Shown piece after piece: positions 16,888 through 63,887 of a stretch of DNA of 63,887 bases. The position numbers and the translations under genes are program-made. The notes beneath the pieces are model-generated. The model saw nothing but the letters and a program-made list of their open reading frames with translations. It ran no database searches and was not told where the DNA came from. Origin of the DNA: Welwitschia mirabilis. Its lineage: Eukaryota. Location: NCBI GenBank assembly GCA_051453625.1, contig JBOZIK010000001.1, positions 12,439,171 through 12,503,057 of the forward strand, read 5' to 3'. Every line of letters starts with the position of its first letter. The first letter of the stretch is position 1.

Positions 16888-17181
16888 TCCTATATTCTAT
16901 GATAAAAACATAATTAGAAATAATAATAAAAAATTAACAAGTAAATAAATAAATGATATGTTATAAGGTTTAACTTTTAAGAAAGGAAAATGGATGCTAT
17001 TTGAATTATAAGAAATTTTGTTTGATAAGTGAAAGTGTCTCTCAAAAGAATTAGTAAGACTTCAAGAAGGGAAAGTTATATATAATAAAAATGACTAGGT
17101 GATGAAGGAAAATAAAGATACCTATGCAATCATTTATCTTTTGTTTTATAAAAAAAGGGAAAAAAAGAAGAAGAGAAAACA

Positions 17182-17346
17182 ATGTCCTATCATAAGTACA
17201 TTTTGGCAAATATTCTCAAGAAGGGCCTTTGTCAGTGACTCCACCAAGGGATTAGTTGGTTATGATCTAAGTTTATAACTATGTAGGTTCTTGTCTCTAT
17301 GGTAGTAATTGTACTCTTCTTATTGCAACAGTATTTCTTAAAATAA
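17182..17346 (+). pseudogene. Accessory ORF1 of A: small peptide with a hydrophobic helix
   Basis: One frame reads MSYHKYILANILKKGLCQ*LHQGISWL*SKFITM*VLVSMVVIVLFLLQQYFLK; the stops are TGA/TAG, plausibly former TGG. Homologous to 58164-58334. Confidence 0.55.
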
Positions 17347-17759
17347 ATGCTCTTTGGCTTGAAATTATAAAGAAGACAATCACTATCCAAGTATCATCTG
17401 AGGAACAGTTAGTATCTAATATTTTCTTTAAGCCAAGTGAACCTCCAAAGGAAAAGTAAATATTACACCCCATACTGATTTTTTATTTTAACATTTAAAA
17501 CATTTAAATAAATGTATCTTTCTTCTATTTATCGTGAATCAATAATTTTTTGTGAAGATAAAAAGGCTTGACATTCAATTAATTTTTATAATTTGGTATA
17601 ATAAAAATGAGTACTAAAATAAAAGCAGATTATTATTAGTTACAATATGAAATAAAAAGAGTTTTAATCAAAAAATACATTTATTTTATTAAAGCAACTA
17701 AATCTAAATAGATAACAACTAAAGCAAAAAACTAAAATAAATTGAAATTAATCTCATGG

Positions 17760-18560
17760 GATCTTAGAAAACTTGATGCCTGTACTTATTCTTCCTCCTA
17801 AACCTATACTAATTAGATGTTTCTATGAGAGGAGGAAAAGATAAGCAGTGTAGGAAGTTAGTAATAGTCTTAATCTCTATAGCATGGGCATAGCAGAAGT
17901 TCTAATAAACTAATTCATCCAAGGGTTAATATTTTTTATAGGTAATTCTCATCAAAAGAGAGAGTATAAAGGCTTAGATTTAGATTGTTACCTTTTTTTT
18001 GCTATAACCTTTACTCTAATTCATGAATCTAACTTAAACAATGCCCTAATAAAGAATCATACCTATTAGACTCATCAATTAGAATAGAACTCAGCTTGAC
18101 AATCTAGATTTTCAAATACTCTGTACATAAGTAATCAACTATTGAATCAAAGTAGGGTGGAATTTCTCCATGGCTAAATTAATTCCTTCCATTATTTTAG
18201 AGGATGTCACCCAAGGAATTGAGCACCTCAGAAACTAAACTATAGGAATACTTTGCATAGAAATCTTCTATACTCATAATGTTCATATTTATCTAAGAGG
18301 ATCTTAAGCTAAATAGACAGCATTTAAATTTCTTAATAAGAGGAGAAGTAAGCAAGTTATTAGAACTATAGGCCATCTCTAATCTAGATATCAAGAGAAC
18401 TTGATTTAATTTTGTAAATGTGTGTTGAGTGAAATTATTCAAGGCATTGTAGTATACTTATACCTAGAAAGTAACAGTAAAGAAAACCATTCATAATTTC
18501 AGGTTTGATTGAGTCTTGGACATACCTGAGATGCTAATTTATGAGAAGTTAGAAGAGATC
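17760..18560 (-). pseudogene. Accessory ORF2 of A: antisense ORF of unknown function
   Basis: VLNSLGDIL*NNGRN*FSHGEIPPYFDSIVDYLCTEYLKI*IVKLSSIL...GNNLNLSLYTLSFDEN aligns with the antisense ORF at 58700-59340. Confidence 0.65.
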
Positions 18561-18654
18561 TATTTAATCCAAAAAATCCTAGATTAAACTCTGCTTCTTC
18601 TAACTAAACTATAAATGCCATGTCAATTGTGACTTTGTCCCCAGTCAAATTTAT

Positions 18655-19920
18655 TAATTTAAAGGACCTTCTTTAAGAAATATTCATTGCTCAAAGGCCT
18701 TCTTGAAATCTTAAACAATTTGAATATTCTATTTTTGATGACATGTTAAAAGGTACATATCATCTGTTGAAGACCCCTTTGATAAATGACTAACCTCATT
18801 CAATGGTGTCTTCAAAAACCTCTAGTGTCTTTGCTTCTTTCCCTTTTTACTCTCAGTGTGAGCTTGAAGGCCCCCTTCAAGCAACCTTCATTATGCAAAG
18901 ATTCCCTTAAACCTCTATATTTAGTGTAGTAGGAATAAATTGAATAATGAGTTAGCTTTGTCTTCCTCCTAATTTATCACTCACTTCTCGAGCCCGTTTT
19001 AGATGATCAAAGACCTCCTTTGCATAATTACTTGACTAATATGACATTTTATGGATTTCTAATTAAATATCCACTTTGGAAGAAGAAATCCTCCCTTAAA
19101 TTTTTATGTTCATAAATAAGAGCAAAAGGGTAAATTGAAGTCATAATAAATTCTTTAAAAACCTTGCCAATGACTCCTTGAAAGATTTTTTTTTTTTTTT
19201 GTTTGAAAAACAACTTTAAGATTAGTCTTTGTTAGATAATTCTTTTGAAGAAGCAATTTGTACTCAAAGGACCCATTTTAGCAACCTACATTACTCAAAG
19301 ATCCCCTTAAAGAAAGTAATTGCTACTAAAATCTAGAAGAGACTTTGTAATCTAAATTTTAAACAGAAAACATGTATTAAAAAGCTAAATAGAATACCTA
19401 ATGAAATGGACAACTACTATGATAAACTTCAAATAGTATTTTCTAGAGAGTGAACTAATAGAAAGTTAGATAAAATAAATATTATGAAAATAGCTCTTAC
19501 TAGTAGGAAAAAAAGCATCTATGAAAAAAACAATAATAGCAGTAGTATTAAATGGATTAGAATTTCAAAAGGAATTCTCTTAAGAAAGATTCTTATTCAG
19601 AGCTTTATGAAATTTGCAAAAAGAAACACATAGTCTATAGAATATAAAGTGTTTAATATAAGCCAAGGAAATTATAATTACATTTATATAATTAAGAGGT
19701 TAAAGGTACCAATTTTGGATAGTTCAAAGTACTAAAATTGAGGCAAGAATCTGTAACTTCCACTCTATTAAGTTGCTTCATCAATTTGAAGGATTCTTTT
19801 GAGGAAGTAATTATTACTCGAAGCACCCCTCTAAGAAATATTTATTGCTTGAAGATTCTCTTTGAAGATGTAATTACTACTGAAAGGATACCTTTAAATA
19901 GTTGAAGGCCTTCTTTGAGC
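18655..19920 (+). repeat. Clusters of a degenerate ~30-bp repeat in the spacer of A
   Basis: Units resembling ttRctcRaaggaYYYYtttRagaaRtaat at ~18655-18710, ~19236-19330 and ~19784-19920. Confidence 0.55.
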
Positions 19921-20325
19921 CCTGATGGGAGGAAGAGACAAAAGTAGACTTTTATATCATATTTTATTAATACCCCATTTGACGACTTTGACCACCCTTT
20001 CATCAGAAAATGTAGCAAGTCAAACTTCAACACATAGTAGGGAGCTTCAAATTTCTATAAATAGAACATCGCGATAGGTAAATTTTTATTTCAAGTTTGT
20101 TTTTAGTGAACAATTTGCTTTGTCATCTTCCAATTGCATGTGAAAACATCATGAAAACCTCCTCTATTGTCTCTTTCGTAAATTCAAAAAAATGTTATTT
20201 TAGGTTAAAGCATTTAAATTAAGAATGTTTTTTACATAGTTAAATACTTTAAGTTCTTTAAAATGCATTCTATTTTCTTCAATAAGATATTAGATGAGTG
20301 CTTGGAGTTTAATGACAATTCTTAT

Positions 20326-21470
20326 ATGAGTATTTCATATAAGAAAGCAATTGAACTCCAAAGCTAAATAGTAAAATATTTTCTACAAAAGTTAAAACTT
20401 TTTCTAGTTTAAATTTTAGAAAACTTCTAAAAAACCCTGTTTCACTAGACTTGGATAATGAATAATTAAACTTAACTAGTGAAATTGGTTAACATTTTCA
20501 AAAAAATACAATAATGAAAAAGTATACTCTTTCTATAGAAACATAAATTTTTTAGAGAAACTACCAACATTATACTCATCAGTTATTAATGTACTGATTT
20601 AGATTTTACTGGATGAAATAAAGATGATTTTTTGGGTACCATCTAGTGAAAGATTATTATCAAAAATGTGTAACAATAAGGACATCACATTATGTCTAAA
20701 ACATTTTTGCAATATCACTAATAAAGATGGATGAGTTGACATTGATAAGGTAAGGGATCCTGAGGTATTTTTCATTTCTAGAATGCTATTCTTGAATCTA
20801 GACCTAATCATCAATAAGAAAAAGGACATGAGTATACTAAGAGTACATTTAGTGGATGCCATTAAAAATCCCTCAAGCAAAAATATTAACATTGGGTTCA
20901 ACATCTTTCAATATTTATGTAAACCATAATCTAGAATAAAATACACTACGACGATTACAAAGGTTGGACTAGGATATTCATTACTGATCCTAAGGACTCT
21001 TTTAGATAGAAATATTCTATAATTCTTTCCAAGAAAAATAAGTAGCATGGAACTTTTAGTCATATTCTTATTTGGAGTTTTGGTTCTAACACCCTTTAGC
21101 ATTCTAGACACATAAGAGACACCTTCAACTAGATAGCTAGTAACATAAATTTAAACATAACTTCTAGGTCCTTCCATGGATCAAGCAAATACATTTACTT
21201 TATAGCAATTAGAGCTGTAAAAGGAAATAAAATCTTTTACAAAGTTATTAGAAGAATATAAGGAGGATTCTTTATGTGCTACTATAAATTCTTTAACTGG
21301 CTTCCTACTAGAAAAGAATAAATTACCAGAAGAAAATATTAGTTTAAAGAAAAAGGTTAAATTTTTGGAACTATAGAATAAATTTTGCAAAAATAATTTT
21401 TTCCCCTTATCACAAAGAATGGGATAAAGCAAAGGAGAAAAAGTAGCAGCTAGTGGAGAGATTAATCACT
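20326..21470 (+). pseudogene. Accessory ORF3 of A: plant-transposon/env-like (PF20167-like) ORF with a coiled-coil tail
   Basis: YNNEKVYSFYRN...RDPEVFFISRMLFLNL...INIGFNIF...VGLGYSLLI...KVKFLEL. Homologous to 30243-31370 (DNA level) and 61050-63120 (protein level). Confidence 0.6.
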
Positions 21471-23946
21471 CATTTTAAATCTCATAAGTCAAATAGCTCC
21501 TCTCTACATAATGCTTAAGTTTAAATTGAGGAATTAGAGCAAGAACTCAAAGAGGAAAAAGAGAAACTATAGCTTCCTTCCCCTCTATAATAGAGAGAGA
21601 ATCATTAATATTGCTATTTATGTTATGATCAATTGTATTAATAATAAATGCTTAAGAGTTCTTCTAACACTTATTGTAGACCATCACTATGTGATAGATA
21701 GAGGGATATGTAAATTTACTCATACACTAAATATTATTAATGGACAATGAATATGAAATAGCTTACGGTAATGCTCCTATGCCATGATGGAATTATTTAT
21801 AGTAAAGCAATATATAATAAAATAAAAACAATGTTAAAATCTCATTTTTTAATTTTAATTTACCTATTATATGTGTGTATTGTAACTTCTTATTAGTTTT
21901 AATTTTAGCTAATTAAATACATAAAATTAAGAATATCTATCTTAGGTGAAACCTCGTCATCATAGATAAGGTCTGTCTCATCTTTATTTTTACTAGTTCC
22001 ACTTAAAATATGATGGTATGATTGTTTTCTTTATTTTTGTTTAGTAAATAAAGTTATCCTTTATTATTTTTAGGCTTCCACCCTTATGTTGATAAAATTA
22101 TAGATGCAAAAATTAGTAAACTTCCTTCTTTATATTCAAAATTATAGAATTTTTTAGGCAAATGTAATAAGAGCATTGTTTCTAATGCTCCAAACCCTTA
22201 TACTCCATTTTTCCTAAATATATTCTTCTTCTATTTTTAAGAAATCTACTTCTAATTAATTTTAATTTAACCTTTTACCATCATAATGTTGTAGAATCCC
22301 TATTTCTTAGAATATTTTAACATTCCCTCTCTAGTAAAGATATTTCTCTTAAATTAGTTTTTTGAAATAATGGTGGTCTATAAGAACAATTTTGATATGT
22401 TCCATGGTAAACATCCGATATATAATAGAAAAGCTAATGAAATCTCCACTATAAAGGCTTCCATTCCATCATCCCTTATCACATAACTTACTATTACATG
22501 GCCTACCACAATCAATACACCCTGATAGGAGTAGAAAAGGGAGGAATTTTTAGAGGCTACCATCATTCTAGAACAAGATTATAAATGGCTAAAAATCATT
22601 TAGATCAAAATTGTATAAGAAATTATTCATTGTAGCTTTATTTTATTTTTTAAGCCAACACATAGAGAGAACTATACTAGTTAACTTATAGAATTTTATT
22701 ATAGGATAACCATACATTACCAATATCTTATCAATGATAATCCTAATCAACTTGAATAAGAAACCATCATTTGATGTCATATGGGTCACATTAAAATTGA
22801 TATTATAAAAGGTTTCTTATACAAAAATTATAGCATTTCATCCAAGGGAATCCACTTTACATTGATTAAGGAGTAAGAAAGAAAAAAAAGAATATTTTAT
22901 AGATCTTATAGGAGAATAAGTCACCTTTAAGGCTTTAACTTTAGCCTTTGAAGATGGGATATTTATTTAAATAATCTTTCCTTAGACATGTATGTTTTTT
23001 ATACTTATTACCATTAACATTCATTCCACAATACACATTTATTAACCTTATGACATTTCACACTATATTAGTGTTGGTGTTATACAATGCAAAAGTGTAT
23101 AATTTTACTTAAACTATCATTAAGTTCATAAAATTAGTAGTCTAATCACCCATTATTATATCTTTTCCTTTCCTTCTTGCTACCATTTTATAATCTAGAA
23201 ATATATTCAAACCAACTCATGAGTCACTAACATAAATGATAAGTTTTAAAAAATGGATCTAAACATAATTCATCTCATTAAGTAGGCCTAAATTTAACCT
23301 CTAGAAGCACTAGCTTCTTTAGATACCACACTCATAAACCTTTTTCACTAAGTAACTTTAACAAGTTAGAGGGATAATATAAAATTAAAAATAATAATTA
23401 CAAGTTCACATGCAAACTTTAGAATTCAAATTGACCAAGCTTACTAATGAAGTTTAAGAAATTAAAATGCACATTGGATTTAAGATTGAACATGTAGCAA
23501 GTGCAATATCACCAGAGGATGGGAAAAGAATATCATGAAATGAATACCCCATGAATTTGTACTTTTACCTATTTTTATCATGAAATTGAAAGATTGATAA
23601 TGATTTTATAACCATTCAATTCAATTTTTGTAATTTTGTACTATGTACTTTGATTGGCATCTTAATATAATAAATGCTCTTTTCTACTATACACGTTATT
23701 TATTTTTAATAATTTCTTACTCCATAATAAATTTACTAACATACTAAATGAGATTAATTTAAACTATTAATTATTTTCTAACAAAGGGACTATCACAAAA
23801 AAAGAATAAGACTATGATAGCACTATAAATTTTAATTTTATCACATATTGTATCACATAGTTAAAACTTGAAATACTCTAAAGTACCCTTTACAAATGCA
23901 CTTAGAACCAAATATATTCTAGTTAGTTTACTTTAAAAAATGTTAT

Positions 23947-24870: not shown

Positions 24871-24873
24871 TTT

Positions 24874-24890: not shown

Positions 24891-24902
24891 ACTTCTAACC
24901 TT

Positions 24903-30017: not shown

Positions 30018-30242
30018 TCCTATATTCTATGATTAAGAAAAACATTAGAAATAATAATAACAAACAAATAAGAAATAAATAAATAAATAATATGCTATGA
30101 GGTTTAAATTTTAAGAAAGGTAAANNNNNNNNNNNNNNNNNNNNNNNNNNNNNNNNNNNNNNNNNNNNNNNNNNNNNNNNNNNNNNNNNNNNNNNNNNNN
30201 NNNNNNNNNNNNNNNNNNNNNNNNTTTAATAGTAATTCTTAT

Positions 30243-31370
30243 ATGAGCATTTCATATAAGAATAAGATTGAACTCCAAAGCTAAACTATAAAATATGTTT
30301 TTGTATAAGTTAAATTTATTTCCATTTCAAATTTTAAAAAACTTCTTAAAGATGTTAGTTTTACCATACTCAAATAATGAATAATTAAACTTAACTAATG
30401 GGACTAGTTAACATTTCTAGAAAGTATAATAATGAAGAAGTATCATCTTTTTATAGAAAGATGATATTTTTAGAGGAATCACCAATATTATACTCATCAT
30501 TCAATCATGTACCAATTCAAAGTTCATTGGGTAAAATTAGGATGATTCTTTAGGTATCATTAAGTGGAAGATTATTATCAGAAACATGTAAAAATGAGGA
30601 CACCACCTTATGTCTAAAACATTTTCATAGTATCACAAATAAAGACAGATTAGTTAACATTAATAAGGTAAGGGATCCTAAGGGATTTATCATTTCCAAA
30701 ATAGTATCTTCTAACCTAGCTCCAATCATCAACAAGAAAAAGAACATAAGTATATTAGTAGTACACTTAATAGATTCCATTAAAGATCCCTCAAGTGGAA
30801 ATATTATTATTGTATTCAACATCTTTAAATACTTATGTAAATTAGTGTCTACAATCAGAAACACCACCATGATTATAAAGGTTAAACTAGGATTTTCATA
30901 ACTAATTAAAAGGATTATTTTAGATAGAAATGTTCCATAATTCTTTCTAAGAAAAATAAGTAGCATGGAATTCTCAGTCGCATCCTTATTTGGAGCTTCG
31001 ATTCTAATACCCTTTAGTATTTTAGGCATAAAAGAGACATCTTTAACTAGTCAATCAATGATACAAATTCAAATACACAAGATCCTTCTAGGAAATAAGT
31101 CGATACATTTACTTTATATAAAGTGGGGCTATAAAAGAAAGCAGAATCCTTTACAAAGTTACTGAAAGAAGATAAGGTGATTTTTTTATGTGCCACTATA
31201 AATTACTTAACCAGAAAAGACTAGCTATAGAAAGAAAAACTTAGTTTAAAGGAAAAAGTTAAATTTTTAGAACTAGAGAATGAATTTTAAAATATAAAAT
31301 TTATTTTTGGTAGGAAGAATGTGACAAAGCAAAGGAGGAGAAGTAGTTGTTAAAGGAGAGATTAATCTCT
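30243..31370 (+). pseudogene. Accessory ORF3, copy in B
   Basis: DNA homologue of 20326-21470, ending KVKFLELENEF. Confidence 0.6.
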
Positions 31371-31499
31371 CATTTTAAATCCCAAAAGTTAGACAAGTTC
31401 TCTCTACACAATGTTCAAGCTCAAATTAAGTAATTAGAGTGAGAACTTGGAGAGGAGAAATAAAAACTATAGCTTTCCCCTATTAATAACAAATATTTT

Positions 31500-33300
31500 T
31501 TATTGGAAGTTCTAAAAATCATGGTTCATACAAAACATATTATACCAAATATGTTGAAATGCAATAATAATTTATTACTTTTATTCATAACAATTCATCC
31601 CTCCCTTTAAAGAAAGAATATTTATAGAAAATTTATGAAAAGCATATGAAAATTCAAGAGGAAAATAATAAATACAAGCAAAAATGTTTAAAGTCTTTAG
31701 AATGAGTGTAGGTTAAGTAGGAAAAAATTGAAATATAGGAGAGAAATATTGCTTTCCTATAAGAAAATCTAGAATCAACCTTTTCTTATTCCATACCCAC
31801 TAGTTATTCTTTGTTAGAATAGAGTTTACTAAATATTTTGAAATATGAATTGTCTCTAATCTCAGAAAGAGTTCTATAACCTGCTTTATAACAACTAACT
31901 CTAGTGGATACAGGGATTTTTATGCATCAAATTTTAGACGCCATCAAAGAAATATTAGTTCCTTCTAGCTAGTTGGAATTAATTGAAAAGCTAAAAAAGG
32001 AAAATAATAGGCTACTTTATGAAAATAAACTTTTAGAAGTCTAATTAGAAAAGAGAGTAAGATTTGGGGATGAAGAATTAATGGTACCAAGGAGAAAACA
32101 TTTTTATCACTAAAACTTATACGATTATTTTGATTATTATGAAGAAGTTATAAATGAAATCATATAGAACATAGAAAAAGGACGGGAGAAAATTACTAGG
32201 GTATCTAACCAAGCCCTCGAGGAGATAAATACTACCAAGAGTAAAGTAGTTAAAGGACAATATTANNNNNNNNNNNNNNNNNNNNNNNNNNNNNNNNNNN
32301 NNNNNNNNNNNNNNNNNNNNNNNNNNNNNNNNNNNNNNNNNNNNNNNNNNNNNNNNNNNNNNNNNCCCACTAATTATTCTTCATTAGAATAAAATCTAAT
32401 AAATATTTTGAAAAATTAATTGTCTCTAATCTTAGAAAGAGTTTTACAACCTGCTTTACAACAACTACTCTAGTGGATACAGAGATTTTTATGCATGAAA
32501 TTTTAGATTCCATCAAAGAAATATTAGTTTCTTCTAGCTAGTTGAACTTAATTGAAAAGCTCAAAAAAGAAATAGTAGGCTACTTTATGAAAATAAACTT
32601 TTAGAAGTCTAATTATAAAAGAGAATAAGATTTGGGTATGAAGAATTGATGGTATTAAGGAGAATACATTTTTATCATTAAAACTTATATGATGACTTTG
32701 ATGATCATGAATAAGTTATAAATGAAATCATACAGAAGATAGAAAAAGGATGGGATAAAATTACTAGGATATCTAACAAGGCCCTTGAGGAGATAAATAC
32801 TACCAAAAGTAAAGTAGTTAAAGGACAGCATTACAAGGCAATGAGCAAACTCCTATAAGTCTATGAAGGTTATAAAAAAGATATTTCTCTTTTTATAATT
32901 ACTAAGTAGGATCTAAATTCTCTAAAAAAATCAAAGAAATAAGCTTTTGTAGTGCATGAGAATGCTCAAACTTTATAGATATTTTCTTCAAAATGGAAGG
33001 AGGAGAAGAAATTTGAACTATCCTAAATAGAAATTACTCTAGTTTAGAGGAATCTGAAAAGCCTCCTCCTCCTCAGCTTATGAAGTTAAAGAATATTTCA
33101 ACTACTAAAAAGGATAAACAATTAAAAGAGAAGCTAACAAGTGTAGCTCAATCGGATCAAAAAGTTAAATTTAAAAAAATATCCCGTTTGAAAGAGAAAA
33201 TTGAGGCAAAGAAGTAGTTGAAAGAAATGAAAAAGTCATAGGTTGAATTAGAATTAGATACAATTGAAAAGAAGAAAATAAAATATCAAAGAAAATAATT
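31500..33300 (+). pseudogene. Accessory ORF4: K/E-rich coiled-coil ORF just before LTR3
   Basis: KYVEMQ**FITFIHNNSSLPLKKEYL*KIY and LIEKLKKENNRLLYENKLLEV*LEK match element C at 63300-63840. Partly duplicated around the gap at 32266-32365. Confidence 0.6.
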
Positions 33301-52689: not shown

Positions 52690-55600
52690 AATAAGATAGC
52701 CAATAAAAATTAAGGGATGAGAAAGGTAAGTTTTTTAAAAACCCTAAAAAATATAATTTGGATGACTAGACTAGAAGTAGGATTAAAATAGAGATAGAAG
52801 AGGAATATTTTAGTATAGATCAAACCACTATTGGAAATACTATGATAGAACAAATCTTTTTTGAATTCATGAGTGAAATAGAAAGTGCTTGCATATTCTT
52901 CTCAAATCACATATCAGTCAAGGAGAATCTTCCGAAATGGTTAGGATAAATAAACTTGAAAAGAAATTTGTAGCAAGATGCTATTAGAAAGATGATGGAG
53001 ATTCAAAACCTTTGAATTATAAAACTCACTAGCTAGAAGATTTAATTCCTATTAATGTTATAGTCTTAGAATACTCAAAAAAAGTGGGAAATATAAATAT
53101 AACATCAATACCTATTTTTGAGATCAAGAAATTATAAGAACCTCCACTGCATTTAAGTTTATTTGATGCATTCTACAAAGAAAATTATCTTAATTNNNNN
53201 NNNNNNNNNNNNNNNNNNNNNNNNNNNNNNNNNNNNNNNNNNNNNNNNNNNNNNNNNNNNNNNNNNNNNNNNNNNNNNNNNNNNNNNNNNNNNNNNNNNN
53301 NNNNNNNNNNNNNNNNNNNNNNNNNNNNNNNNNNNNNNNNNNNNNNNNNNNNNNNNNNNNNNNNNNNNNNNNNNNNNNNNNNNNNNNNNNNNNNNNNNNN
53401 NNNNNNNNNNNNNNNNNNNNNNNNNNNNNNNNNNNNNNNNNNNNNNNNNNNNNNNNNNNNNNNNNNNNNNNNNNNNNNNNNNNNNGAGTCAAACTTTAAA
53501 GGAATTAGACTTACTATGTAGAGGAAGCATTAAGACAAAGAATGTTCAAGAGGTAGGAGAAGCTATTACTTAGTTTTATAACGTGAGTTAAGGATGGGAA
53601 CTAAAAATGAAAAGAAGAAGAGAATAAATAAAGTATTTACCATAAAAGCAAATGGTAATATGTATAGTTCAAAGCATATCAGTCTTATGGAAGAAGTAGT
53701 TAAAAAAGTGACTAATAGTATGGTAGAAAAATTTGATCAGCTAGTTGTACAATACTTTAAAGAGGAAGAAGAACCTATATACAAACTTTGTGGAGAAGAT
53801 AATCATGAAGGAACAGAATGTCTCTACATGTAAAAATTTGTTCATTGATTAGATATTAATAGAGCAAATTTAAATATAGAAAATCAATCTTAAGTAAGAA
53901 AAAAACCATATCCTTATAAAAGTAGGAAATGAGATAATAAGTCAGAAAAACCATTATAAAAGTATGTAAATTATTAAAGGAAAGAGTAATATAATTATTA
54001 TAGGAATTATAGAAACAAAGATTCAAAAAACATGAAAGAAAAATTGGAGGCAGAGAAGAAAGAAGGTAAAATTCCTGCTTAACCTCAATCTAATCCAAGT
54101 GAAGTAATAAGTAAAGCAATGAGTACTAGATCTAGAAATAGATGGTAATAGATAAATACTAAGAAAAGAAAAGAAATTTAAATAGCTCTCTAGTTTATAA
54201 AGGAATAAATAAGGGAAAGAAAAAGTAGTTGAGGCATTAGTAGATCCTCTACCTTTTTCAATGAGAATTAAATAAAGAAAAAATCCAAAAATTGATAGGA
54301 ATATAGAATATTTAACAAAATTTTTATAAGATATGATCATATTATTACCTCTTTTAAAATTACTAAAAGATGTACCTATGTATTAGAAGAAAATGAAGAG
54401 CATGTTCTTAAAACAAAGGAATAAAAAGAAAAGTAAGAAGGAAAAATAAATTAAGATGATTAGGAAAGATTAAGTTTCTTGGGTTTCCACATAAGTTATT
54501 TAAAATGAACAACATGAAAAGGACAGTGACCCAAGAACACCTATGATAGACATAAAAATTAGTGAAAATCTCAAAGTATAAGCACTTTTGAATCTAGAAG
54601 CAAGTGTTAATGTGATGGCATATGAGACTTATGAGGAATCAAAAAAGCCAAATTTAATATCTTATGAAGGAAAAGTATACCTAATACTAGAAGGAATTCT
54701 AAAGAATATGCCCATTAAACTCCAAGCATATATCTACTTGATGGATTTTTTAGTAATGAAGACTCAAAGAGAAGACTCAAAGAGATACTAATGCAATAAT
54801 TTTAGAAAGACCTTAGATGGCTACTACAGATTCTACTATTTATTCTAAGAAAAGGATAATGGAAGTCAATTTAGGAGATGTTAAGAAAGATATTAAGTTA
54901 TTTAATGTAGTAGTTGTAGGGGAGATGGTGCATAATAAAAAATATAGAATTAATGCAATTCTAATATAAGAGATTAATATGATGTTAAACAAGAAAAATG
55001 AAGAAAATTATAAAGAAGAAAGTTTGACATCTCAAGAAATAGAAAAGCCTTTACTCAAGAAAGGGTTAGAGTATATTGAAGTAGTTCCAAATAGACCTCT
55101 AATTATAAATAGTTCTTTAACTCATTCTTAGGGGAAAAAAATCTTCAAAGAATGCTGATTAGAAAAAAATGAGCTTTTGCTTGGGATCATATTGATATTA
55201 ACAAAATAGATTTAAAAATATATCAATATAAAATTTATTTAAACACTTTTATTAAATCAAATAGGCAACCAGAAAGAATATGCAATTCACATATGAAAAA
55301 ATAATTACATAAGAAATTTCTAAACTCTAAGATGTTGGATTCATATATCCTATATCTGATTTAGAATGCTTTAGTCCTATTACACTAATGCCAAATACAG
55401 AAAATCAATAGAAAGTGTGTATATATTCTTAAATGTTGAATACAAAAACTTATAAAGATCATTTTTATCTCTCATTTATAGATTAAGTTTTAGAAAGAGT
55501 ATTTGGACATTAGTACTATAGCTTTTATGATGGATATACTGGATATAATTAGGTTTCAATAGCTTTGGAGAATCAAGCCAAGACAACTTTTACTTATCAT

Positions 55601-57930
55601 TGGGCTACTTATGCTTATAAATTATTACTATTTGGGTTATGTAATGCCCTTGCTACCTTCTAAAGGTTAGTAAATAGTATTTTTAAAGATATGATAAGAA
55701 GATATATTAAAGTATTTATGGATGATTTCTCAACTTTTAGAAATAATTTTGATGAGATACTTGACAAATTAAAAAGAGTTTAGAAAGATGTGAAGAGAAT
55801 CACTTAAAACTTAGCTAATTAAAAAATCATCTTATGGTGATGGAAGAAATAGTATTGGGACATAAAATATCTAAAAAAGGGATTGAGAATCATGTCCAAA
55901 AAAGTAAATTCATAAAAGATATCTTACCCTCAACCAAATGAAAAGAGTTATGATCTTTCTTAGGGCATGTTGGATATTATAGAAGATATATATCTAAGTT
56001 TAGTAAAATTACTAAACCTCTGAGTAACCTTTTACAGAAGGATGTGGAATATAATTGAACTGATGAATGGTAAAGTACTTACAAAACTTTAAAAAATAAA
56101 GTTTTATTAACACTTATTTTATAGGGATCTAATAGAACAATACCATTCCACATTATGACTAATGTAGCTAGTCACGCAATGGGAGTTATTTTGGGGTAAA
56201 AAGATGAAAATGATAAATCATACACTATTGTCTATGTTAATAAAATTTTTAAACCAACTCAACAACATTATGTAGTGACTACAAAAGATTTGTTGGTAGT
56301 AGTGATGATATTAAAAAAATTTAAATACAATATTTTAGCTTATGAAATGAAAGTTCATATAGACCATAATGTTATTAGATTTTTAATAAATGAAAAAAGG
56401 TTAATTTAAGAATTATGAGATGGATATTATTAATTCAAGAATTTAACTTAAAAATTATTAACAGAAGAGGACCTGAAAATGTAGCAATAGATCACCTCTC
56501 AAGATTACAATTTCCTAATGAATAAAAAATAAATATAAGAGATGAATTTCTAGATAAACATCTCTTTCAAGTAAAAACTAGTCCAATGTATGATGACATA
56601 ACANNNNNNNNNNNNNNNNNNNNNNNNNNNNNNNNNNNNNNNNNNNNNNNNNNNNNNNNNNNNNNNNNNNNNNNNNNNNNNNNNNNNNNNNNNNNNNNNN
56701 NNNAAATATAAGAGATGAATTTCTAGATAAACATCTCTTTCAAGTAAAAACTAGTCCATAGTATGCTGACATAGAAAATTTTATTGTAAGTAAGAAATCA
56801 CTATATTTTATGAATTAGTATGAATGAAAAATATTGTTAAAATAATCTAGAGACTACAAATGGAATGATAATATGTTATTTAGAAAATGTAAATATCATG
56901 TTATTAGAAGATGTGTGGAAGAAAATTTACAGTAGGAAATTATGAAGGAAGTTCATGATGGAAAAGAAGAAGGAAATTATGGTGCAAGAAGAATGAAGAT
57001 TAAAAGATTCTTCGTATGAGATATTATTATCCCATAATATTTAGAGATTCAAATGCTTATTTTTAGAGTTGTGATAAGTATTGAAGAGAGAGAGCATTTA
57101 ACTAGTCTCTATTGATTATTTTACTACATGTGCCAAGGCTAATGATGTAACTCACTTAAATCATAGTTACTTTTTTCTTTAGGAATATTATCCATCCATT
57201 TGGAGCCCCTCGAATCTTATATCTGATAGAAGAACTCATTTTACTAGTGAAATTTTCAAGAAACTCTTAACTAAACATGGGATCCACTACAAACTCTCTA
57301 TTGATGATCATCCTTAATCTAATGATGAAGTTGAAGTGATTAATAGAGAAATTAATAGAATATTAATAAAATTCATAAATATGAAGAAAATAGGTTGGGC
57401 TGAAAAATTAAATAAAGCTTTATGTTCTTAAATTAAAAACATAGCATGGATTTACATCATATGAATTAGTCTATGGAAAAAGAGTTATTTTGTCAAGTGA
57501 ATTTAGAATAAAAACCTTTAAATTAGCTAAAGAACTAAAGTGTAATTTGGTTATAGCTTAAGAAGAATGGATAGAAAACATGAATATTTTGAATAAAAAT
57601 AAAAAATAAGCTCTTTTTGTGAAAATAACTTATACAATAGAAAACTAAAATATATCATGATAATAAAATTAGAAAAATCAATTTTAATATAGGAGATTTT
57701 GTACTAATCTAGATTCTAAAAATATCCATTTAAAATATAAATATGAACAAAATTAGCTAGGGCCTTATACCATAACAAAAATTTTGGGAAATGGAACCAT
57801 AGAGGTATATGATCCTAATGAAAATATAACCTACCAAGTAAATGGGCAAAGAATAAAAATGTATTATGATCATAAATCTTTATTTCATTATCTCAAGAAC
57901 TACAATAAGGTGTAAAGAATACTTTCACTC
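52690..57930 (+). pseudogene. gag-pol: Element C gag-pol
   Basis: PR ALLNLEASVNVM (DLGASVN). RT YDGYTGYN*VSIALENQAKTTF..LLFGLCNA..VFMDDF. RH RWILLIQEF..ENVAIDHLSR. INT HP*SNDEVEVINRE, LGPY..VNGQRIK. Confidence 0.9.
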
Positions 57931-58163
57931 ATAAAATAAAAAATTTTAGACTAAATGATAATGACATATCATTTATCCAAGCTATCAATTTATTAAGTTG
58001 TTCAAGATAGATTTAATGATTCTAAAATAAGAAGCTAACTTAGTAAGTCTTCAATAAGAGATAGTGTATTATCCTTATTAAAAATATTGAGGAGACACAT
58101 TCCATCACATGATAGAATATCTTTTGATAAATATGTATGTGTGTGTATGTATATATATGTAGA

Positions 58164-58334
58164 ATGTTCTACTACAAGTTCACAGAGGTAAATATTCCGG
58201 AGAGGGGCTTTTGATAGTGTAATATAGTAGCTATGAGAACTCCATTAAGGGATTAGTTAGTGATGATCTATATTTTGAAAATCTTATGGATTTTTACTCT
58301 TCTAACAGTGGTTGTACTCTCCTCATTTTGGCTA
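58164..58334 (+). pseudogene. Accessory ORF1 of C: small hydrophobic peptide
   Basis: MFYYKFTEVNIPERGF...KILWIFTLLTVVVLSSFWL, truncated by a gap. Homologous to 17182-17346. Confidence 0.55.
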
Positions 58335-58699
58335 NNNNNNNNNNNNNNNNNNNNNNNNNNNNNNNNNNNNNNNNNNNNNNNNNNNNNNNNNNNNNNNNNN
58401 NNNNNNNNNNNNNNNNNNNNNNNNNNNNNNNNNNNNNNNNNNNNNNNNNNNNNNNNNNNNNNNNNNNNNNNNNNNNNNNNNNNNNNNNNNNNNNNNNNNN
58501 NNNNNNNNNNNNNNNNNNNNNNNNNNNNNNNNNNNNNNNNNNNNNNNNNNNNNNNNNNNNNNNNNNNNNNNNNNNNNNNNNNNNNNNNNNNNNNNNNNNN
58601 NNNNNNNNNNNNNNNNNNNNNNNNNNNNNNNNNNNNNNNNNNNNNNNNNNNNNNNNNNNNNNNNNNNNNNNNNNNNNNNNNNNNNNNNNNNNNNNATTC

Positions 58700-59340
58700 T
58701 TTTTGTTGGAGTGTCTCGTCTTAGATAACCCTATAAAACTCTTACATAGGGATAGCTAGTACATTTTCGTTAAAGATCGTAATAGCATGCTTATTTCTTC
58801 TAGGTGAGCTCACCAAAAATTCTTGTAAGGCTTTGCATTTCATATCATTTTCTCTATGTTGTTCCTATCAAAGCTTAGTAAAGCTAGACTAAGTATAGGA
58901 GTTGTACCTTAAGGCTAATCCACTTTCTTTTCTAATACCTACATCCATTCAAATGATTTTTCTAAGGAAACATTATAAGCTGAGTCTTCTTAATTAAGTT
59001 GCTGACATAATTCTTCCGTCCTAACCCTTAGATACTTGTCCAACAGATGATAAACCATGGGGTCAAAACCTATAGAAATGACTCCATTCCCAAAGTGTTC
59101 TTTACCATCTTCAGTATAAAAGGTATCTAATGTATCTAAGACCTTGAGAGTTGATTTATAATCATCATATAGTGAGTATTTCACCCCATTCTCATATCTA
59201 ACAATAATTTGAGGTAATGGAGGTTCTACACTTCTAATACACATATCAATCTACATAGAGTTAAAAATGTAATTCTTTACCTTTTTAACACCTAAAGTAG
59301 TAATGGTGGAGTGAGAGAGGAGTAGACACCATAAGGATTA
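58700..59340 (-). pseudogene. Accessory ORF2 of C: antisense ORF
   Basis: Includes the track ORF 58990-59244 and continues after a frameshift as YNVSLEKSFEWM*VLEKKV..GTTPILSLALLSFDRN. Confidence 0.65.
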
Positions 59341-61049
59341 AATAAGAATAAATAGTAAGGATTGAATAAGATTGAGTAGAGGAACTCTAAGACTCAATAT
59401 AGAGAATGATGAATGGTTAGCATAAAGGAATGAAATTTATATCATAAGTATTACTTAATGTAGTTGGCAAGTGTGATTTATCTTGAGATACTCAATGTAC
59501 ACATGTTTAGCAATGAAGTAAAATATTTCGAAGGAATTACATGCCTATTCTATCCAATAATTGAGATGTATCAATTATATAGAAATGATATTCATGTCAA
59601 GATAAAAACTAGAAAATTTAAAATTGACTGAGGTTTAACCTATAGTTAAAACTTTAGCTCAACTTATAATCAGCTTAGTTTTTCCCCCAAGTTGTAATTC
59701 TTTAAAGGGGGCCATTAGATTTTATTCTCATCATCGATTGCCAAGTGGTTAATTAAAATCCTAAAATATTTTTAAATCAAAAAACCTTTAAATAATGTTA
59801 TGAAAACATAGCTAGTAGTATATAGAAAAAGAATGTATTTTCAAAGAAGAATAAGAAAATAAATTTTACCTATATTATTTCTTTAGTAGCACATTATCAT
59901 AAGCTAAAATTCTAGAATAGGTTTATTGATTAACTGACACTAACTTAAATTCAAAAATTTTAGTAAGATTCAAAGTCAAGCCATGTGCTATAAGATTAAA
60001 AAGTTGATTGACACCAGTTTAAAGTTAAAACTTTGAGTTAAATTTCAAGTTAACTTATTTATGTTAAAGTAAAAAACTCGTTATTGAAGAGTGGGTTCCT
60101 TTTCTTGATGACCTCTATTAACTTTTTATTATATCTTCTTTTCATGATTATGCTTTTTTATTTCATCTCACTTAATTATATTTAAGTGGTTAGGATTCAA
60201 AGGACCATATCAAGGACTTTTGAGTTCTTGATGATGTCCTTCAAATCCTTTATCAGCTCCACAATGGATTCAATGATTCCTATTGAAAACTTAATATTTC
60301 TCAATGGCCCTCATTAAACCCTTGTATTGTAGAGAGTGATAACCACTTAAATGCAATCCCCTAGTTCTTTAACCTCTTACTTAAAATCAAACTTGATAAC
60401 CCTCTCCTCATTCTTGATGACCTCCATTGAAAATTAACAAATGGCTTATTTCCACATTATCTAATCCACATCAACCTCCACGAAATCCATTCCATTTCAA
60501 CTAATTTTCTTATTATTCTCTTTGCCACTACATCATTCATTTTTTACATCAACACCCATGTAGAAATGATTACTATTTTTTGGTGAAAATTTTTAGTATC
60601 TTCAAACATGTAAATTAAATGAAATAAAAGGTATAGGTTTTTACCTAGTTTAAGTGGGAATTAGGTATGTAATTTTACTTTTACTTCTGCATTTTACTTT
60701 CTCATGCTTAAGTTTAACATTATGGTAGAACTCCATATCAAAATTCCAGGTTTGTCATTCTATCTCATGTTTTTATTTCTAAGCATTCAGGAGTATGTAA
60801 ATGTTTAACTTGGGGTGGGTAAGATAAACAATAAATTTTGTGAAAAGAAAATGCTGGTGAAGCGTAAATTATTTCAAGATGATATTTTTAATTTTCTCTT
60901 TTCTAAAATGGCAATGTTTTATAAAAATAGATATGCTTATTAAGTGTGAATTTGTTTATTAGACATTATTACTTAAGTATTTTCCCCCCTTAATCTTCTT
61001 CCAGCTAAGGTTCTAAAAAACCTTGTTTAACTTAAACAATTAGGACAAT

Positions 61050-63120
61050 TTGATAAAATGTAAAATTATTTCTTCCTTAAATTTTACAAATGTGCTTTTA
61101 GACCCTATTTAGTAGATTTTAAATAAAGAATCATTGAATTAGGCTGGTATGAGTGGTTAACCATAAATAAGAGATTTACTTTAAAATCTGTTTATGAATT
61201 TTATAAGAATTTAAGGTTTGATGAGAAGAATAATGTACTAGAAACAATTGTTAAGAATAAGAGAATATCCATTACTCAAGAAGAAATTAAAGAAATGTTG
61301 CACTTACCATCTAGAGGTAACTCTGTTAAGGATATAAGTAGGAAAGAAGATACAAATTTAAGCATAAGTCTATTAGAGAGGATGGTAGTGAAAGGAAAGA
61401 TCCCTATAAATAAAGATTTAGAACTATAATACTTTATTATTTCAAAAATTAAGATTAGTAATTTAGTAATAATTCTTTACAATCAATAGGATATCATACT
61501 ACCTAACCTATACATGATAGCAACTATGAAGAATAGAACANNNNNNNNNNNNNNNNNNNNNNNNNNNNNNNNNNNNNNNNNNNNNNNNNNNNNNNNNNNN
61601 NNNNNNNNNNNNNNNNNNNNNNNNNNNNNNNNNNNNNNNNNNNNNNNNNNNNNNNNNNNNNNNNNNNNNNNNNNNNNNNNNNNNNNNNNNNNNNNNNNNN
61701 NNNNNGTAGTGCAAGGAAAAATCCCTATAAATAAAGATTTAGAACTAGAATTCTTTATTATTTCAAAAATTAAGACTAGTAATTTAGTACTAATTCTTTA
61801 CAATCAATAGGATATCATACTACCTGACTTATACATGATAGCAGCTGTGAAGAATAGAATAAATTAAACAAATGTTAATATTATAGAAGGAATCTTTGTA
61901 GGTTTAGTTAGACATATTTCAAAAAAGAAGAAATTTGAAATAGAAGCTTATGGTGCAGTTGGGCTAGNNNNNNNNNNNNNNNNNNNNNNNNNNNNNNNNN
62001 NNNNNNNNNNNNNNNNNNNNNNNNNNNNNNNNNNNNNNNNNNNNNNNNNNNNNNNNNNNNNNNNNNNTGTTTAGTAAATTTTAAATAATGTATCATTGAG
62101 GTAGGTTGGGATGAATGATTAATAATAAATAACATATTTACTTTGAAATTTGTTTATGAATTTTACAAGAATTTAAGATTTTATGAAAAGAATAATGTGT
62201 TGGAAACAATTGTTGAGAATAAAAGAATATCAATTACTCAAGAAGAAATCACAAGAATGTTGCTCTTACCATTTGGAGGTAAATCTATTAAGGATACAAG
62301 TAGGAAGGAAGATACAAATTTAAGCGTGAGTCTATTAAGAAGGATAGTAGTACGAGGTAACTTACCTATAAATAAAGCTTTATACTAGAGTTATTTATTA
62401 TTCCAAGAATTGTGGCTAGTAATTTAGTGTGAATTCTTTACAAACAAAAGGGTATCACATTACCTATTCTGTACATGAAAGAAGCTATAAAGGATAGAAC
62501 AAATCAAACAAATGTTAATATTATAGAAGGAATCTTTTTAGGTTTAGTTATACATATTTCAAAAATGAAGAAATTTGGAATAGAAGCTTATGGTGTAGTG
62601 GGGTTAGAATTTCCATCTTTGATAGACCAAATACTAAGTAAAAATAGGTTCCATTTAGGCCAAGTAAGTTCTGTGTGGATTTAACAATTCAATGTCTTTT
62701 TGGAGTTAAAGAATTAATCCTTTAAAAACCATAAAGCAAAGAAGTTAAACTCAAGGAACTTCTCAATTAGAACTAGGTGAACCCTCTTTTGTTCTTTAGA
62801 GCTTTCCATCATTATTTCCTCTTATAAGTGTGGGCGAAGATCCAACTTAGTTTACTTTCAAAGAACTTCCTCCTCCTCATCCATTATATCCTAGTCCATT
62901 CTATAAAGCACTAGGAGATAATACGTTTAATAGTCTTTGCACTGCTTTAAATTTAGTTAAGGATGAAATTCAAACTTATCTTGATTGAAAGAAAGAATTA
63001 TCAGAATTGCAGAACCAAGTTGCTTGTTAAGAATTGAGAATGAATTTTTAAGATAAAAATTAGATCAAGAAAAAAAAATGTTAAAAAATTACAACAATGA
63101 ATGATCAAAAAGGAGGAAAG
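61050..63120 (+). pseudogene. Accessory ORF3 of C: PF20167-like plant-transposon/env-like ORF (overlapping copies across gaps)
   Basis: EVGWDE*L...FVYEFYKNL...VENKRISITQEEITRMLLLP...GLEFPSLIDQIL, then a proline-rich linker and a coiled-coil tail. Confidence 0.7.
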
Positions 63121-63239
63121 TGTTTAACTCTCAGAATCATATAAGGACATGAGTAGAAAATTATACAAAGCATGTGAGTGAAATGTTAAATTATAAACAG
63201 CTGTTGAAGATAGAAATGAATTAGAAATTTTTCCAAAAA

Positions 63240-63887
63240 AAAGACCAAAATATTAGCCTTTTTATTGTAGAATCTCACTTCAACTAAGAAATATAATGCT
63301 AAATATATAAAGCATCAAAAAAAATTTATTACATTTATATATAATAAAGGGATTTTAACATTAAATAAGGAATACTCAGAGAAAATCTACACAAACCTAA
63401 AAGGTATGAATGAAAAATATATGAAGATTTAGGCAAAGGCCCAGAAGTATAGACACAAATGGATTGAAGTCTAAAATTTAATTAATATATTTTATAAGTA
63501 AATAAGAGATTTATTAATCAAATAACAGAAGAAAATANNNNNNNNNNCATCAAATTTAGCTATTTAGCATATGACCTTAGAAATAAAAGAAGAGATTAGA
63601 AGGATAGTAAATTTAATACAAGATATTCCTTCAACCTCTTCAAATTTTGTTGCTAAAATTAAAAATAAAATAAAACTAAGTATTATAGATGCTTTCAAAG
63701 AATCTTATTTAGAATTGAAAAAGGATATTAGATTAATACATTAGAATATACCTAAATTCTTATTCAAAATTTAGAAAAAGAAAATATAAGATTACTACAT
63801 GAATTATGCCTGATGGAGGTTAAATTAAGTAAAACCATGAAGGATTGGCAATTTCTTGAAGCCTTGATTATTATCCCTAGAAGTTAT
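63240..63887 (+). pseudogene. Accessory ORF4 of C (coiled-coil), truncated by the window end
   Basis: KYIKHQKKFITFIYNKGILTLNKEYSEKIY and LIQNLEKENIRLLHELCLMEVKLSK. Confidence 0.6.

What the first reader, a model, noticed from the sequence alone, without database searches (positions are those of the whole stretch)
16890..63887. Conserved four-ORF accessory cassette 3' of pol in tRNA-Asn-primed Athila-like elements
Seen: families A/B and C have LTRs and spacers I could not align at the DNA level. Both carry, in the same order and orientation after integrase, a small TM ORF (+), an antisense ORF (-), a ~1.7-kb spacer, a PF20167/env-like ORF (+) and a coiled-coil ORF (+). For A/B the order is a composite: ORF1-3 in A, ORF3-4 in the B-to-LTR3 segment. 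Known: Athila and SIRE elements typically have one env-like extra ORF, and some Tat/Ogre/Retand elements have extra or antisense ORFs. Inference: this lineage kept a multi-gene accessory module under selection, reminiscent of complex retroviruses (e.g. anti-silencing, movement or targeting functions). I do not recall this four-gene layout being described, but I cannot confirm novelty.
Basis: partly seen in the sequence, partly recalled or inferred. Interest (0 to 1): 0.85.

Follow-up and report, generated by a model that had tools for sequence, protein, structure and literature searches.

The report
Decayed Athila-like retrotransposons with extra genes
Three long-dead copies of a plant-type Athila-like jumping element carry, behind their polymerase gene, the remains of one backward-facing gene and one long forward gene of a known plant-transposon type, a layout already known in outline for this group of elements.

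Summary
The window holds three heavily decayed Ty3/gypsy LTR elements. A runs 8.9-24 kb, B 24-33.5 kb, and C about 49.4 kb to the window end.

Families A/B and C share frame-specific protein similarity after integrase, in the same order:
- an antisense block (171 aa, 29%, 50 bits);
- a sense block with a sub-threshold PF20167 match in C only (236 aa, 30.5%, 69 bits);
- a further sense block (111 aa, 35%, 47 bits).

None of 60 shuffles exceeded 28.1 bits. Codon-position identity in these blocks matches the pattern in pol, so they were once coding and constrained.

The "four-ORF cassette" itself is not supported:
- Nothing is open today.
- The "small TM ORF" is only a conserved DNA patch of about 220 nt, and its peptide score is at noise level.
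- "ORF3" and "ORF4" are contiguous and in one frame in B, and probably in C, so they are probably one long sense gene.
- B's missing part is a 100-N scaffold gap, not a deletion.

The antisense block has no relative in Pfam or in 1.84 billion representative proteins. Sense plus antisense extra ORFs after pol are already published for Athila/Tat elements. My verdict is a new member of a known kind, of modest interest.

The parts
8932..9728 (+). LTR1 of family A/B (5' LTR of element A)
   Evidence: blastn self-comparison with LTR2 and LTR3; LTR-end alignment
9729..9748 (+). Primer-binding-site-like motif of element A. The B copy is at 24873-24892; the C copies are at 51019-51034 and 52641-52656.
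   Evidence: Pattern search: 2 matches against 0 expected. A looser pattern also finds the two C copies with 2 mismatches each. Four-way alignment of LTR end plus PBS.
12800..16885 (+). Decayed pol of element A, in the order RT, RNase H, integrase
   Evidence: Pfam with stops read as X: RVT_1 1.4e-16, RT_RNaseH 6e-22, rve 1.8e-10, Integrase_H2C2 6e-4. The frame ends in a cluster of stops.
17051..17269 (.).
   Evidence: Three collinear blastn HSPs to C 58040-58270, best 87.5% over 32 nt, E 2e-5. DNA alignment with a 19-nt indel. Peptide score 26.2 bits is at noise level.
17927..18397 (-). Block 2 in A: remains of the antisense extra ORF (7 in-frame stops)
   Evidence: 29% over 171 aa to C on the minus strand only, E 1e-9 to 2e-8. 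Codon-position identity 0.48/0.61/0.36.
18398..20185 (.). Spacer in A with no similarity to family C
   Evidence: No HSP or 35
20186..21592 (+). Block 3 in A: sense extra ORF with the PF20167-like part (20186-20941) and a variable linker. Similarity to B ends at 21592.
   Evidence: 30.5% over 236 aa to C, E 5e-14. A/B blastn 20308-21592 with 30225-31488. Frame view.
21593..23946 (.). Tail of A, unrelated to B, C or the rest of the window. Block 4 is missing here.
30125..30224 (.). 100-N scaffold gap in B that hides the region where blocks 1 and 2 would lie
   Evidence: N-run list; A/B similarity breaks exactly at its edges
30225..32092 (+). Blocks 3 and 4 in B, in one continuous reading frame
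   Evidence: All five B-versus-C HSPs (30317, 30653, 30686, 31385/31517, 31979) share one frame. Frame view.
53486..57930 (+). Decayed pol of element C
   Evidence: Pfam RT_RNaseH 1e-13. A-versus-C translated HSPs of 34-47% identity.
58040..58270 (.). Block 1 in C, followed by the N-run 58335-58695
58843..59349 (-). Block 2 in C: remains of the antisense extra ORF (6 in-frame stops)
60845..62570 (+). Block 3 in C. The first copy is 60845-61540. Partial repeats at 61706-61966 and 62068-62570 lie across N-runs.
   Evidence: PF20167 at 27.4 bits, E 3.6e-6, profile positions 2-133 of 177. Alignment A6. Repeats across gaps.
63157..63887 (+). Block 4 in C, cut by the window end
   Evidence: 35% over 111 aa (E 2e-9) and 44% over 41 aa to B

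Best explanation
These are three old, dead copies of non-chromovirus Ty3/gypsy LTR retrotransposons of the Athila type. They belong to two families that share one primer-binding motif.

When active, the common ancestor carried two accessory genes between integrase and the 3' LTR:
1. A gene of about 170 aa or more on the opposite strand.
2. After a spacer of 1.5-1.8 kb, one long sense gene of at least about 620 aa. Its N-terminal part is a distant relative of the plant 'Transposase_32 / Athila ORF-1' domain.

A conserved DNA patch of about 220 nt lies directly after pol. It is more likely a cis-acting signal than a gene.

Shown: the blocks exist, they are collinear, and they were constrained as protein.

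Inferred:
- The sense gene was expressed from the LTR promoter, probably through a subgenomic (spliced) RNA, as for other Athila env-like ORFs. I infer that it acted as a nuclear, nucleic-acid- or chromatin-associated helper of transposition rather than as a true envelope protein.
- The antisense gene was driven by an internal promoter in the spacer. It acted as a regulator, through its protein, its antisense RNA, or both.

All copies in the window are now inactivated by heavy decay; transitions outnumber transversions and CpG is strongly depleted.
For: - Domain order RT, RNase H, integrase, with no chromodomain and no second RNase H.
- LTR-PBS structure and a PBS/LTR-end motif shared by A, B and C.
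- Three translated blocks at 68.6, 50.1 and 45.8 bits, against a maximum of 28.1 in 60 shuffles.
- The antisense block hits only on the minus strand.
- Codon-position identity in the blocks is 0.48-0.60 / 0.57-0.76 / 0.32-0.43. True-frame pol HSPs show the same pattern (for example 0.63/0.77/0.47), and off-frame pol HSPs do not. Random identity from base composition is about 0.31 (my arithmetic).
- Blocks 3 and 4 are one frame in B. The block-4 HSP reaches back across the point where A/B similarity ends.
- In C, the stretch from 62911 through block 4 is read in a single frame.
- PF20167 match in C: E 3.6e-6.
- Literature, passages read: PMC11728184 (sunflower Athila 14 with a 487-aa ORF(+) carrying PF20167 and a predicted NLS, plus an ORF(-)); PMC6317226 (most Ogre/Tat/Athila elements have extra ORFs and large non-coding regions); PMC7264820 (sense and antisense extra ORFs after pol).
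- CpG observed/expected is 0.12, and transitions exceed transversions.
Against: - No copy has an open frame, so gene boundaries, start codons and the one-gene-versus-two question for blocks 3 and 4 cannot be settled. Sharing a frame has a 1-in-3 chance per comparison.
- PF20167 is below Pfam's cut-off (27.4 against 45 bits) and was found in 2 of 6 block-3 pieces scanned; the best is the first C copy, and the long A and B read-throughs gave no family.
- No outside homologue of any block was found.
- The PBS differs from the tRNA-Asp site that PMC2844528 lists as characteristic of Athila/Calypso.
- RT phylogeny was not done.
- No expression data could be obtained.
- All functional statements are inference from other families.
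Confidence: 0.6

Rival explanations
1. One reading: four separate accessory genes kept as a module. These would be a small membrane peptide, an antisense protein, a PF20167 env-like protein and a coiled-coil protein.
For: - All four positions show some conservation between the families.
- There is a double stop in B at about 31484-31489, between the tail of block 3 and block 4.
- Both copies of block 1 can encode a hydrophobic 19-mer (Kyte-Doolittle 2.37 and 2.48).
Against: - The block 1 peptide score of 26.2 bits lies within the shuffle range, whose maximum is 28.1.
- The frames of the two block 1 copies disagree because of a 19-nt indel.
- Hydrophobic 19-mers of that strength occur in 10-15% of 400 random segments.
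- Blocks 3 and 4 are contiguous and in frame, and one HSP spans the supposed boundary.
- Stops are everywhere in these copies, so a double stop carries little weight.
Confidence: 0.12
2. The antisense block is not a gene of the element. It is a fragment of host or other-transposon sequence captured once by the common ancestor, and it is carried along without function.
For: - It has no relatives in Pfam or in 1.84 billion representative proteins.
- Neumann et al. (PMC6317226, passages read) sort Ty3/gypsy extra ORFs into 314 mutually dissimilar groups and propose independent acquisitions.
Against: - DNA similarity is gone while one-frame amino-acid similarity and a coding codon pattern (0.48/0.61/0.36) persist between the families. 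That requires constraint after the capture.
- Its position and orientation are the same in both families.
Confidence: 0.15
3. The conserved blocks are cis-acting RNA or DNA signals (packaging, splice, promoter or polypurine-type elements) rather than protein-coding sequence.
For: Block 1 is conserved at the nucleotide level more strongly than pol (87.5% over 32 nt against about 66-69%).
Against: Blocks 2-4 show no meaningful DNA-level HSPs but clear single-frame protein similarity, with third codon positions near random. This rival fits only block 1.
Confidence: 0.08
4. The similarities are artefacts of the extreme A+T-rich composition.
For: GC is 19-30%. Low-complexity K/N/I/L-rich translations appear in every frame.
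Against: 0 of 60 composition-preserving shuffles exceeded 28.1 bits, against 45.8-68.6 observed. Composition-corrected blastp was used. The hits are collinear and frame-specific.
Confidence: 0.02

Closest known systems
Athila-clade Ty3/gypsy retrotransposons with a 3' sense extra ORF (Athila4, Calypso; sunflower 'Athila 14' in PMC11728184)
   Same: - Non-chromovirus gypsy order RT, RNase H, integrase, with no second RNase H.
- A long region between integrase and the 3' LTR.
- A sense ORF with a PF20167-type domain.
- Sunflower Athila 14 also has an ORF on the opposite strand.
   Different: - The primer-binding motif is not the tRNA-Asp site listed for Athila/Calypso (PMC2844528, passages read).
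- The antisense block here is at least about 170 aa. The sunflower ORF(-) is 70 aa, and I could not see its position within the element.
- The sense gene appears longer (at least about 620 aa against 487 aa).
- All copies here are dead.
- RT-tree placement was not done.
Tat-clade elements with antisense extra ORFs after pol (maize Grande gene23, rice RIRE2, Silene Retand; PMC7264820, PMC11963269)
   Same: [quoted passage not shown]
- Long, partly non-coding pol-to-LTR regions.
- A regulatory role has been proposed.
   Different: - No second RNase H domain was detected.
- The antisense block has no Transposase_28 or plant-mobile-domain match.
- These elements also carry a sense PF20167-like ORF.
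'PMD plus coiled coil' extra ORFs of Tat lineages (PMC4408406, passages read)
   Same: A two-part accessory protein: a transposon-specific N-terminal domain followed by a helical C-terminal part.
   Different: The domain here is PF20167-like, not PMD. The orientation is sense. A coiled coil was not demonstrated.

Membership tests
Ty3/gypsy LTR retrotransposon | pol domain order RT, RNase H, integrase | tested here: met
   Pfam hits in that order in A: RVT_1 1.4e-16, RT_RNaseH 6e-22, rve 1.8e-10. RNase H in C: 1e-13.
Ty3/gypsy LTR retrotransposon | Flanking LTRs with a primer-binding site next to the 5' LTR | tested here: met
   LTR1, LTR2 and LTR3. A TGG-starting motif right after the LTR end in A, B and C. 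No 3' LTR of C lies in the window.
Athila clade (non-chromovirus, OTA) | No chromodomain and no additional RNase H (aRH). Its presence marks Tat (PMC6317226). | tested here: met
   No such Pfam hit in three frames of A and C pol at E up to 0.1. Spacing from RNase H to integrase leaves about 100 aa. Decay could hide a weak domain.
Athila clade (non-chromovirus, OTA) | Sense extra ORF after pol with the Athila ORF-1 / Transposase_32 type domain | tested here: inconclusive
   PF20167 at 27.4 bits, E 3.6e-6, below the 45-bit cut-off. Matched in 2 of 6 block-3 pieces scanned; the best is the first C copy. The long A and B read-throughs gave no family, but A and B align to C at E 5e-14. PF03078 was not hit.
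Athila clade (non-chromovirus, OTA) | PBS complementary to tRNA-Asp (stated for the Athila/Calypso group in PMC2844528) | tested here: not met
   The motif at 9729-9748 differs from the Asp site printed in that paper. Its fit to tRNA-Asn is recalled, not tested.
Athila clade (non-chromovirus, OTA) | RT, RH and INT cluster with Athila in a reference tree (REXdb) | not testable with these tools
   No reference lineage sequences were available. The 52 metagenome RT relatives carry no lineage labels.
Tat / Retand clade | Antisense ORF with the Transposase_28 (TRP28) domain | tested here: not met
   0 families in six minus-strand frames at E up to 1 and in nine further minus-strand frames at E up to 0.1.
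Pfam PF20167 (Transposase_32) | Score at or above the gathering cut-off of 45 bits | tested here: not met
   Best score 27.4 bits
Retroviral-type envelope protein | Signal peptide, membrane anchor and fusion machinery | tested here: inconclusive
   One hydrophobic stretch shared by A and B in the block-3 frame, near A 21040-21100 (read; Kyte-Doolittle about 2.4 and 1.9 by my arithmetic). No env family was found in Pfam. No dedicated predictor was available. The structure models were unusable.

The most novel reading that the evidence does not exclude
This would be a distinct Athila-related lineage that uses a non-Asp primer and kept, over a long divergence, a real multi-gene accessory region. 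The region would include a lineage-specific antisense protein with no detectable relatives, a two-part PF20167-type protein, and possibly a small membrane peptide. That would make it a 'complex' plant retrotransposon whose accessory proteins regulate its own expression or counter host silencing.
Probability: 0.15. Interest if true: 0.5.

Novelty: new member of a known kind. Interest (0 to 1): 0.25.

Why it matters
Extra genes of plant retrotransposons are common but functionally unexplained. Here an antisense gene and a sense PF20167-type gene were both held under protein-level constraint across two families whose DNA no longer aligns. That is useful evidence that such genes are functional parts of Athila-type elements and not chance ORFs. 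The antisense block also adds an unclassified protein group. These copies are dead, so the value is comparative: they tell where to look in younger relatives.

Tried and rejected
I repeated it with stops read as X.
- No whole genome is held for this window.
- Word-index homologue searches found nothing at E up to 0.01: the block 3/4 alignment (8000 candidates), C block 3 at near lengths (200 candidates) and at longer lengths (747 candidates).
- A full HMMER scan with the antisense alignment gave 0 hits at E up to 0.001 among 1,835,955,588 proteins.
- PDB sequence searches gave best E values of 0.4 and 0.38, which are meaningless.
I did not pursue it.
- AlphaFold2 on block 3 (6 rows) and on the antisense block (2 rows) gave mean pLDDT of 38.4 and 36.8. 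No fold search was run.
- Metagenome scans:
  - The block-3 alignment had no usable conserved stretch.
  - C block 3 alone gave 232 pattern matches and no relative.
  - The RT alignment gave 52 loci from 351 pattern matches, all 1.0-4.4 kb.
  - A tblastn of the accessory blocks against those 52 loci gave only one marginal hit (E 0.003, opposite strand, inside the RT match of L022). I treat it as chance.
- Sequencing runs: no RNA holder was listed. There are therefore no expression data either way.
- Earlier findings of the scan held nothing relevant.
- A paper search for a 12-nt core of the PBS returned 3 unrelated papers.
- Steinbauerova 2011 and Wright & Voytas 2002 are not held. I cite them only through other papers.
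- I did not open the supplements of PMC6317226. They list PBS type and extra-ORF domains per element and could show whether this layout is already catalogued.
- I considered and rejected real tandem duplications as the explanation for the repeats beside 100-N gaps.
Full report
WINDOW AND LAYOUT

The window is very A+T-rich, with GC of 19-30%. CpG is strongly depleted, with observed/expected at 0.12. It contains 35 N-runs totalling 4364 N, many of them exactly 100 N. It has no tRNA gene, and no whole genome is held for it.

Self-comparison gives this layout:
- LTR1 at 8932-9728, then internal region A.
- LTR2 at 23947-24872, then internal region B.
- LTR3 from 33560.
- A and B are 76-84% identical at the nucleotide level.
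- A second family, C, has an LTR-like stretch from 49406 and pol at about 53.5-57.9 kb, and it runs off the window at 63887. It aligns with A/B at the DNA level only in pol, at about 66%.

With stops read as X, Pfam finds RVT_1 (1.4e-16), RT_RNaseH (6e-22), Integrase_H2C2 and rve (1.8e-10) in that order in A, and RNase H in C (1e-13). It finds no chromodomain and no second RNase H. These are non-chromovirus Ty3/gypsy elements of the Athila type.

Nothing is intact. Of the 10 ORFs of 120 aa or more, 9 overlap N-runs, which carry no stops.

THE FOUR CLAIMED BLOCKS

I translated the post-integrase regions of A, B and C in six frames with stops as X and compared them with composition-corrected blastp.

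- Antisense block (significant): A 17927-18397(-) with C 58843-59349(-), 29% over 171 aa, E 2e-8, 50.1 bits.
- Sense block 3 (significant): A 20186-20869 with C 60845-61534, 30.5% over 236 aa, E 5e-14, 68.6 bits.
- Sense block 4 (significant): with finer seeding this is B 31385-31684 with C 63157-63459, 35% over 111 aa, E 2e-9, plus B 31979-32092 with C 63759-63881, 44% over 41 aa.
- 'Small TM ORF' (not significant as a peptide): the match is 19 aa at 26.2 bits, E 0.3.

Across 60 composition-preserving shuffles of C, the best score averaged 24.4 bits and never exceeded 28.1. The three larger blocks are therefore real. The small peptide match is not distinguishable from noise.

No further copies of any block occur elsewhere in the window.

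WERE THE BLOCKS CODING?

The antisense block gives a hit only between minus-strand frames. The plus strand gives none at E up to 5.

DNA-level search between the accessory regions finds almost nothing in blocks 2-4. The similarity survives only as protein.

Nucleotide identity by codon position is shown below.

| Region | Pos 1 | Pos 2 | Pos 3 |
|---|---|---|---|
| Block 2 | 0.48 | 0.61 | 0.36 |
| Block 3 | 0.55 | 0.60 | 0.39 |
| Block 4, first HSP | 0.60 | 0.67 | 0.43 |
| Block 4, second HSP | 0.58 | 0.76 | 0.32 |
| pol RT, true frame | 0.61 | 0.67 | 0.49 |
| pol RNase H, true frame | 0.63 | 0.77 | 0.47 |
| pol integrase, true frame | 0.66 | 0.66 | 0.43 |

Off-frame pol HSPs show shifted patterns. 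Random identity from base composition is about 0.31 (my arithmetic).

Amino-acid identity of the blocks is 29-44%. That is close to integrase (34-38%) and below RT and RNase H (44-47%).

I conclude that the ancestors of both families carried these sequences as constrained protein-coding genes. The alignments were chosen by protein similarity, which biases the codon pattern. The comparison with pol is subject to the same bias, so it remains fair.

HOW MANY GENES?

In B, all five HSPs to C from 30317 to 32092 fall in one reading frame. The block-4 HSP begins at 31385, inside the last part that B shares with A; A/B similarity ends at 21592/31488. In C, the stretch from 62911 through block 4 is also read in a single frame. 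Between the PF20167-like part and block 4 lies a linker of about 180 aa with no cross-family similarity.

The simplest reading is one long sense gene of at least about 620 aa. Because stops are everywhere, a two-gene reading cannot be excluded, and a shared frame has a 1-in-3 chance per comparison.

It is absent data, not a deletion.

A really does lack block 4. A 21593-23946 matches nothing in B, C or the rest of the window.

BLOCK 1

The region 200-400 nt after the pol stop is conserved as DNA. Three collinear HSPs link A 17051-17269 with C 58040-58270. The best is 87.5% over 32 nt, E 2e-5, which is stronger than pol at the nucleotide level.

A 19-nt indel puts the two copies in different frames. 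Both can encode a hydrophobic 19-mer (Kyte-Doolittle 2.37 and 2.48). However, 15% and 10% of 400 random 500-nt segments of this window do as well.

I read block 1 as a probable cis-acting signal. A small membrane peptide is possible but unproven.

HOMOLOGY

- Pfam gives PF20167 (Transposase_32) for C block 3: E 5.7e-5 in the long read-through, and E 3.6e-6 at 27.4 bits for the piece alone, covering profile positions 2-133 of 177. The cut-off is 45 bits. 2 of 6 pieces of the block-3 alignment match.
- The long A and B read-throughs gave no family, but A and B align to C.
- No Pfam family matches the antisense block or any other minus-strand frame.
- The antisense alignment found nothing among 1.84 billion representative proteins.
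- The three word-index searches found nothing.
- PDB sequence searches found nothing.
- The structure models were unusable, with pLDDT of 38 and 37.
- The metagenome scans gave only short RT-bearing contigs without accessory regions.

PRIMER SITE

A 20-nt TGG-starting motif directly after the LTR end occurs in A (9729) and in B (24873, 3 mismatches), against 0 expected. A related motif occurs in C at 51019 and in its repeat at 52641. The four LTR-end and PBS regions align well.

The two families therefore share a primer type. It is not the tRNA-Asp site printed for Athila-type FIDEL in PMC2844528. That it fits plant tRNA-Asn is my recollection only. PMC6317226 (passages read) reports tRNA-Asn sites in 2% of plant LTR elements. 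Its per-lineage tables are in supplements that I did not see.

COMPARISON WITH WHAT IS KNOWN

- PMC6317226 (passages read): most Ogre/Tat/Athila elements have extra ORFs and large non-coding regions. Athila ORF-1 (PF03078) occurs in 16% of Athila elements. Ty3/gypsy extra ORFs fall into 314 dissimilar groups.
- PMC7264820 (passages read): reviews sense env-like ORFs and antisense ORFs after pol, and already draws the parallel to retroviral accessory genes.
- PMC11963269 (abstract read): antisense Transposase_28 ORFs in Retand.
- PMC4408406 (passages read): PMD plus coiled-coil ORFs in Tat lineages.
- PMC11728184 (passages read): a sunflower Athila with a 487-aa ORF(+) carrying PF20167 and a predicted NLS, plus a 70-aa ORF(-) with one predicted membrane helix.

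The layout found here, antisense gene, spacer, then a sense PF20167-type gene, is therefore a further example of a described theme. What is particular is the non-Asp primer motif, the size and cross-family conservation of the antisense block, and its lack of any detectable relative.

MECHANISM

My best-supported reading (confidence 0.6) is two accessory genes plus a cis element.
- The sense gene was expressed from the LTR promoter, probably by way of a subgenomic RNA. I infer that it acted as a nuclear, nucleic-acid- or chromatin-associated helper.
- The antisense gene was driven from within the spacer and acted as a regulator through its protein, its antisense RNA, or both.

Only the existence, order, strand and past coding constraint of the blocks are shown. 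Expression and function are inferred from other families.

The rivals are four separate genes, a captured passenger fragment, purely cis-acting elements, and a composition artefact. They are scored in their own section. The composition artefact is refuted.

VERDICT

This is a new member of a known kind, with interest 0.25.

Noticed in passing
window 9749-11442, 4932-5625, 31796-32833, 34149-35318, 36469-37693, 40636-41425, 45181-47344, 50002-53129, 61108-62501: At nine places, the sequence before an N-run (mostly exactly 100 N) is repeated just after it at 82-95% identity. The differences are mostly substitutions with few indels. These look like unmerged overlapping or paralogous contig ends in a scaffold, not real tandem duplications.
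   Followed up: partly
whole window: Extreme CpG depletion (observed/expected 0.12), GC about 27%, and transitions exceeding transversions between copies (399 against 243 in A/B pol). This is consistent with long-term methylation-driven deamination of silenced repeats.
   Followed up: partly
window 9690-9790, 24834-24934, 50980-51080, 52602-52702: The LTR terminus plus primer-binding motif is conserved between families A/B and C, although the rest of their LTRs does not align.
   Followed up: yes
window 4526-5625: An LTR-like stretch 73% identical to the family C LTR region 49406-50085 lies upstream of element A. It could be a solo LTR or the end of another family C element.
   Followed up: no
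window 35300-49400: This is the most A+T-rich part of the window (GC 19-26%). It has its own internal repeats (for example 41712-42844 with 43099-44227 at 77%) and many gaps. I did not examine its content.
   Followed up: no
window 23875-23946 and 8871-8931: No clear purine-rich tract is visible just upstream of LTR1 or LTR2. Both LTRs begin TGATGACT.
   Followed up: no
window 30625-31029 (-): The only N-free ORF of 120 aa or more in the window (134 aa) lies antisense within block 3 of element B. It has no Pfam match and is probably a chance ORF.
   Followed up: partly
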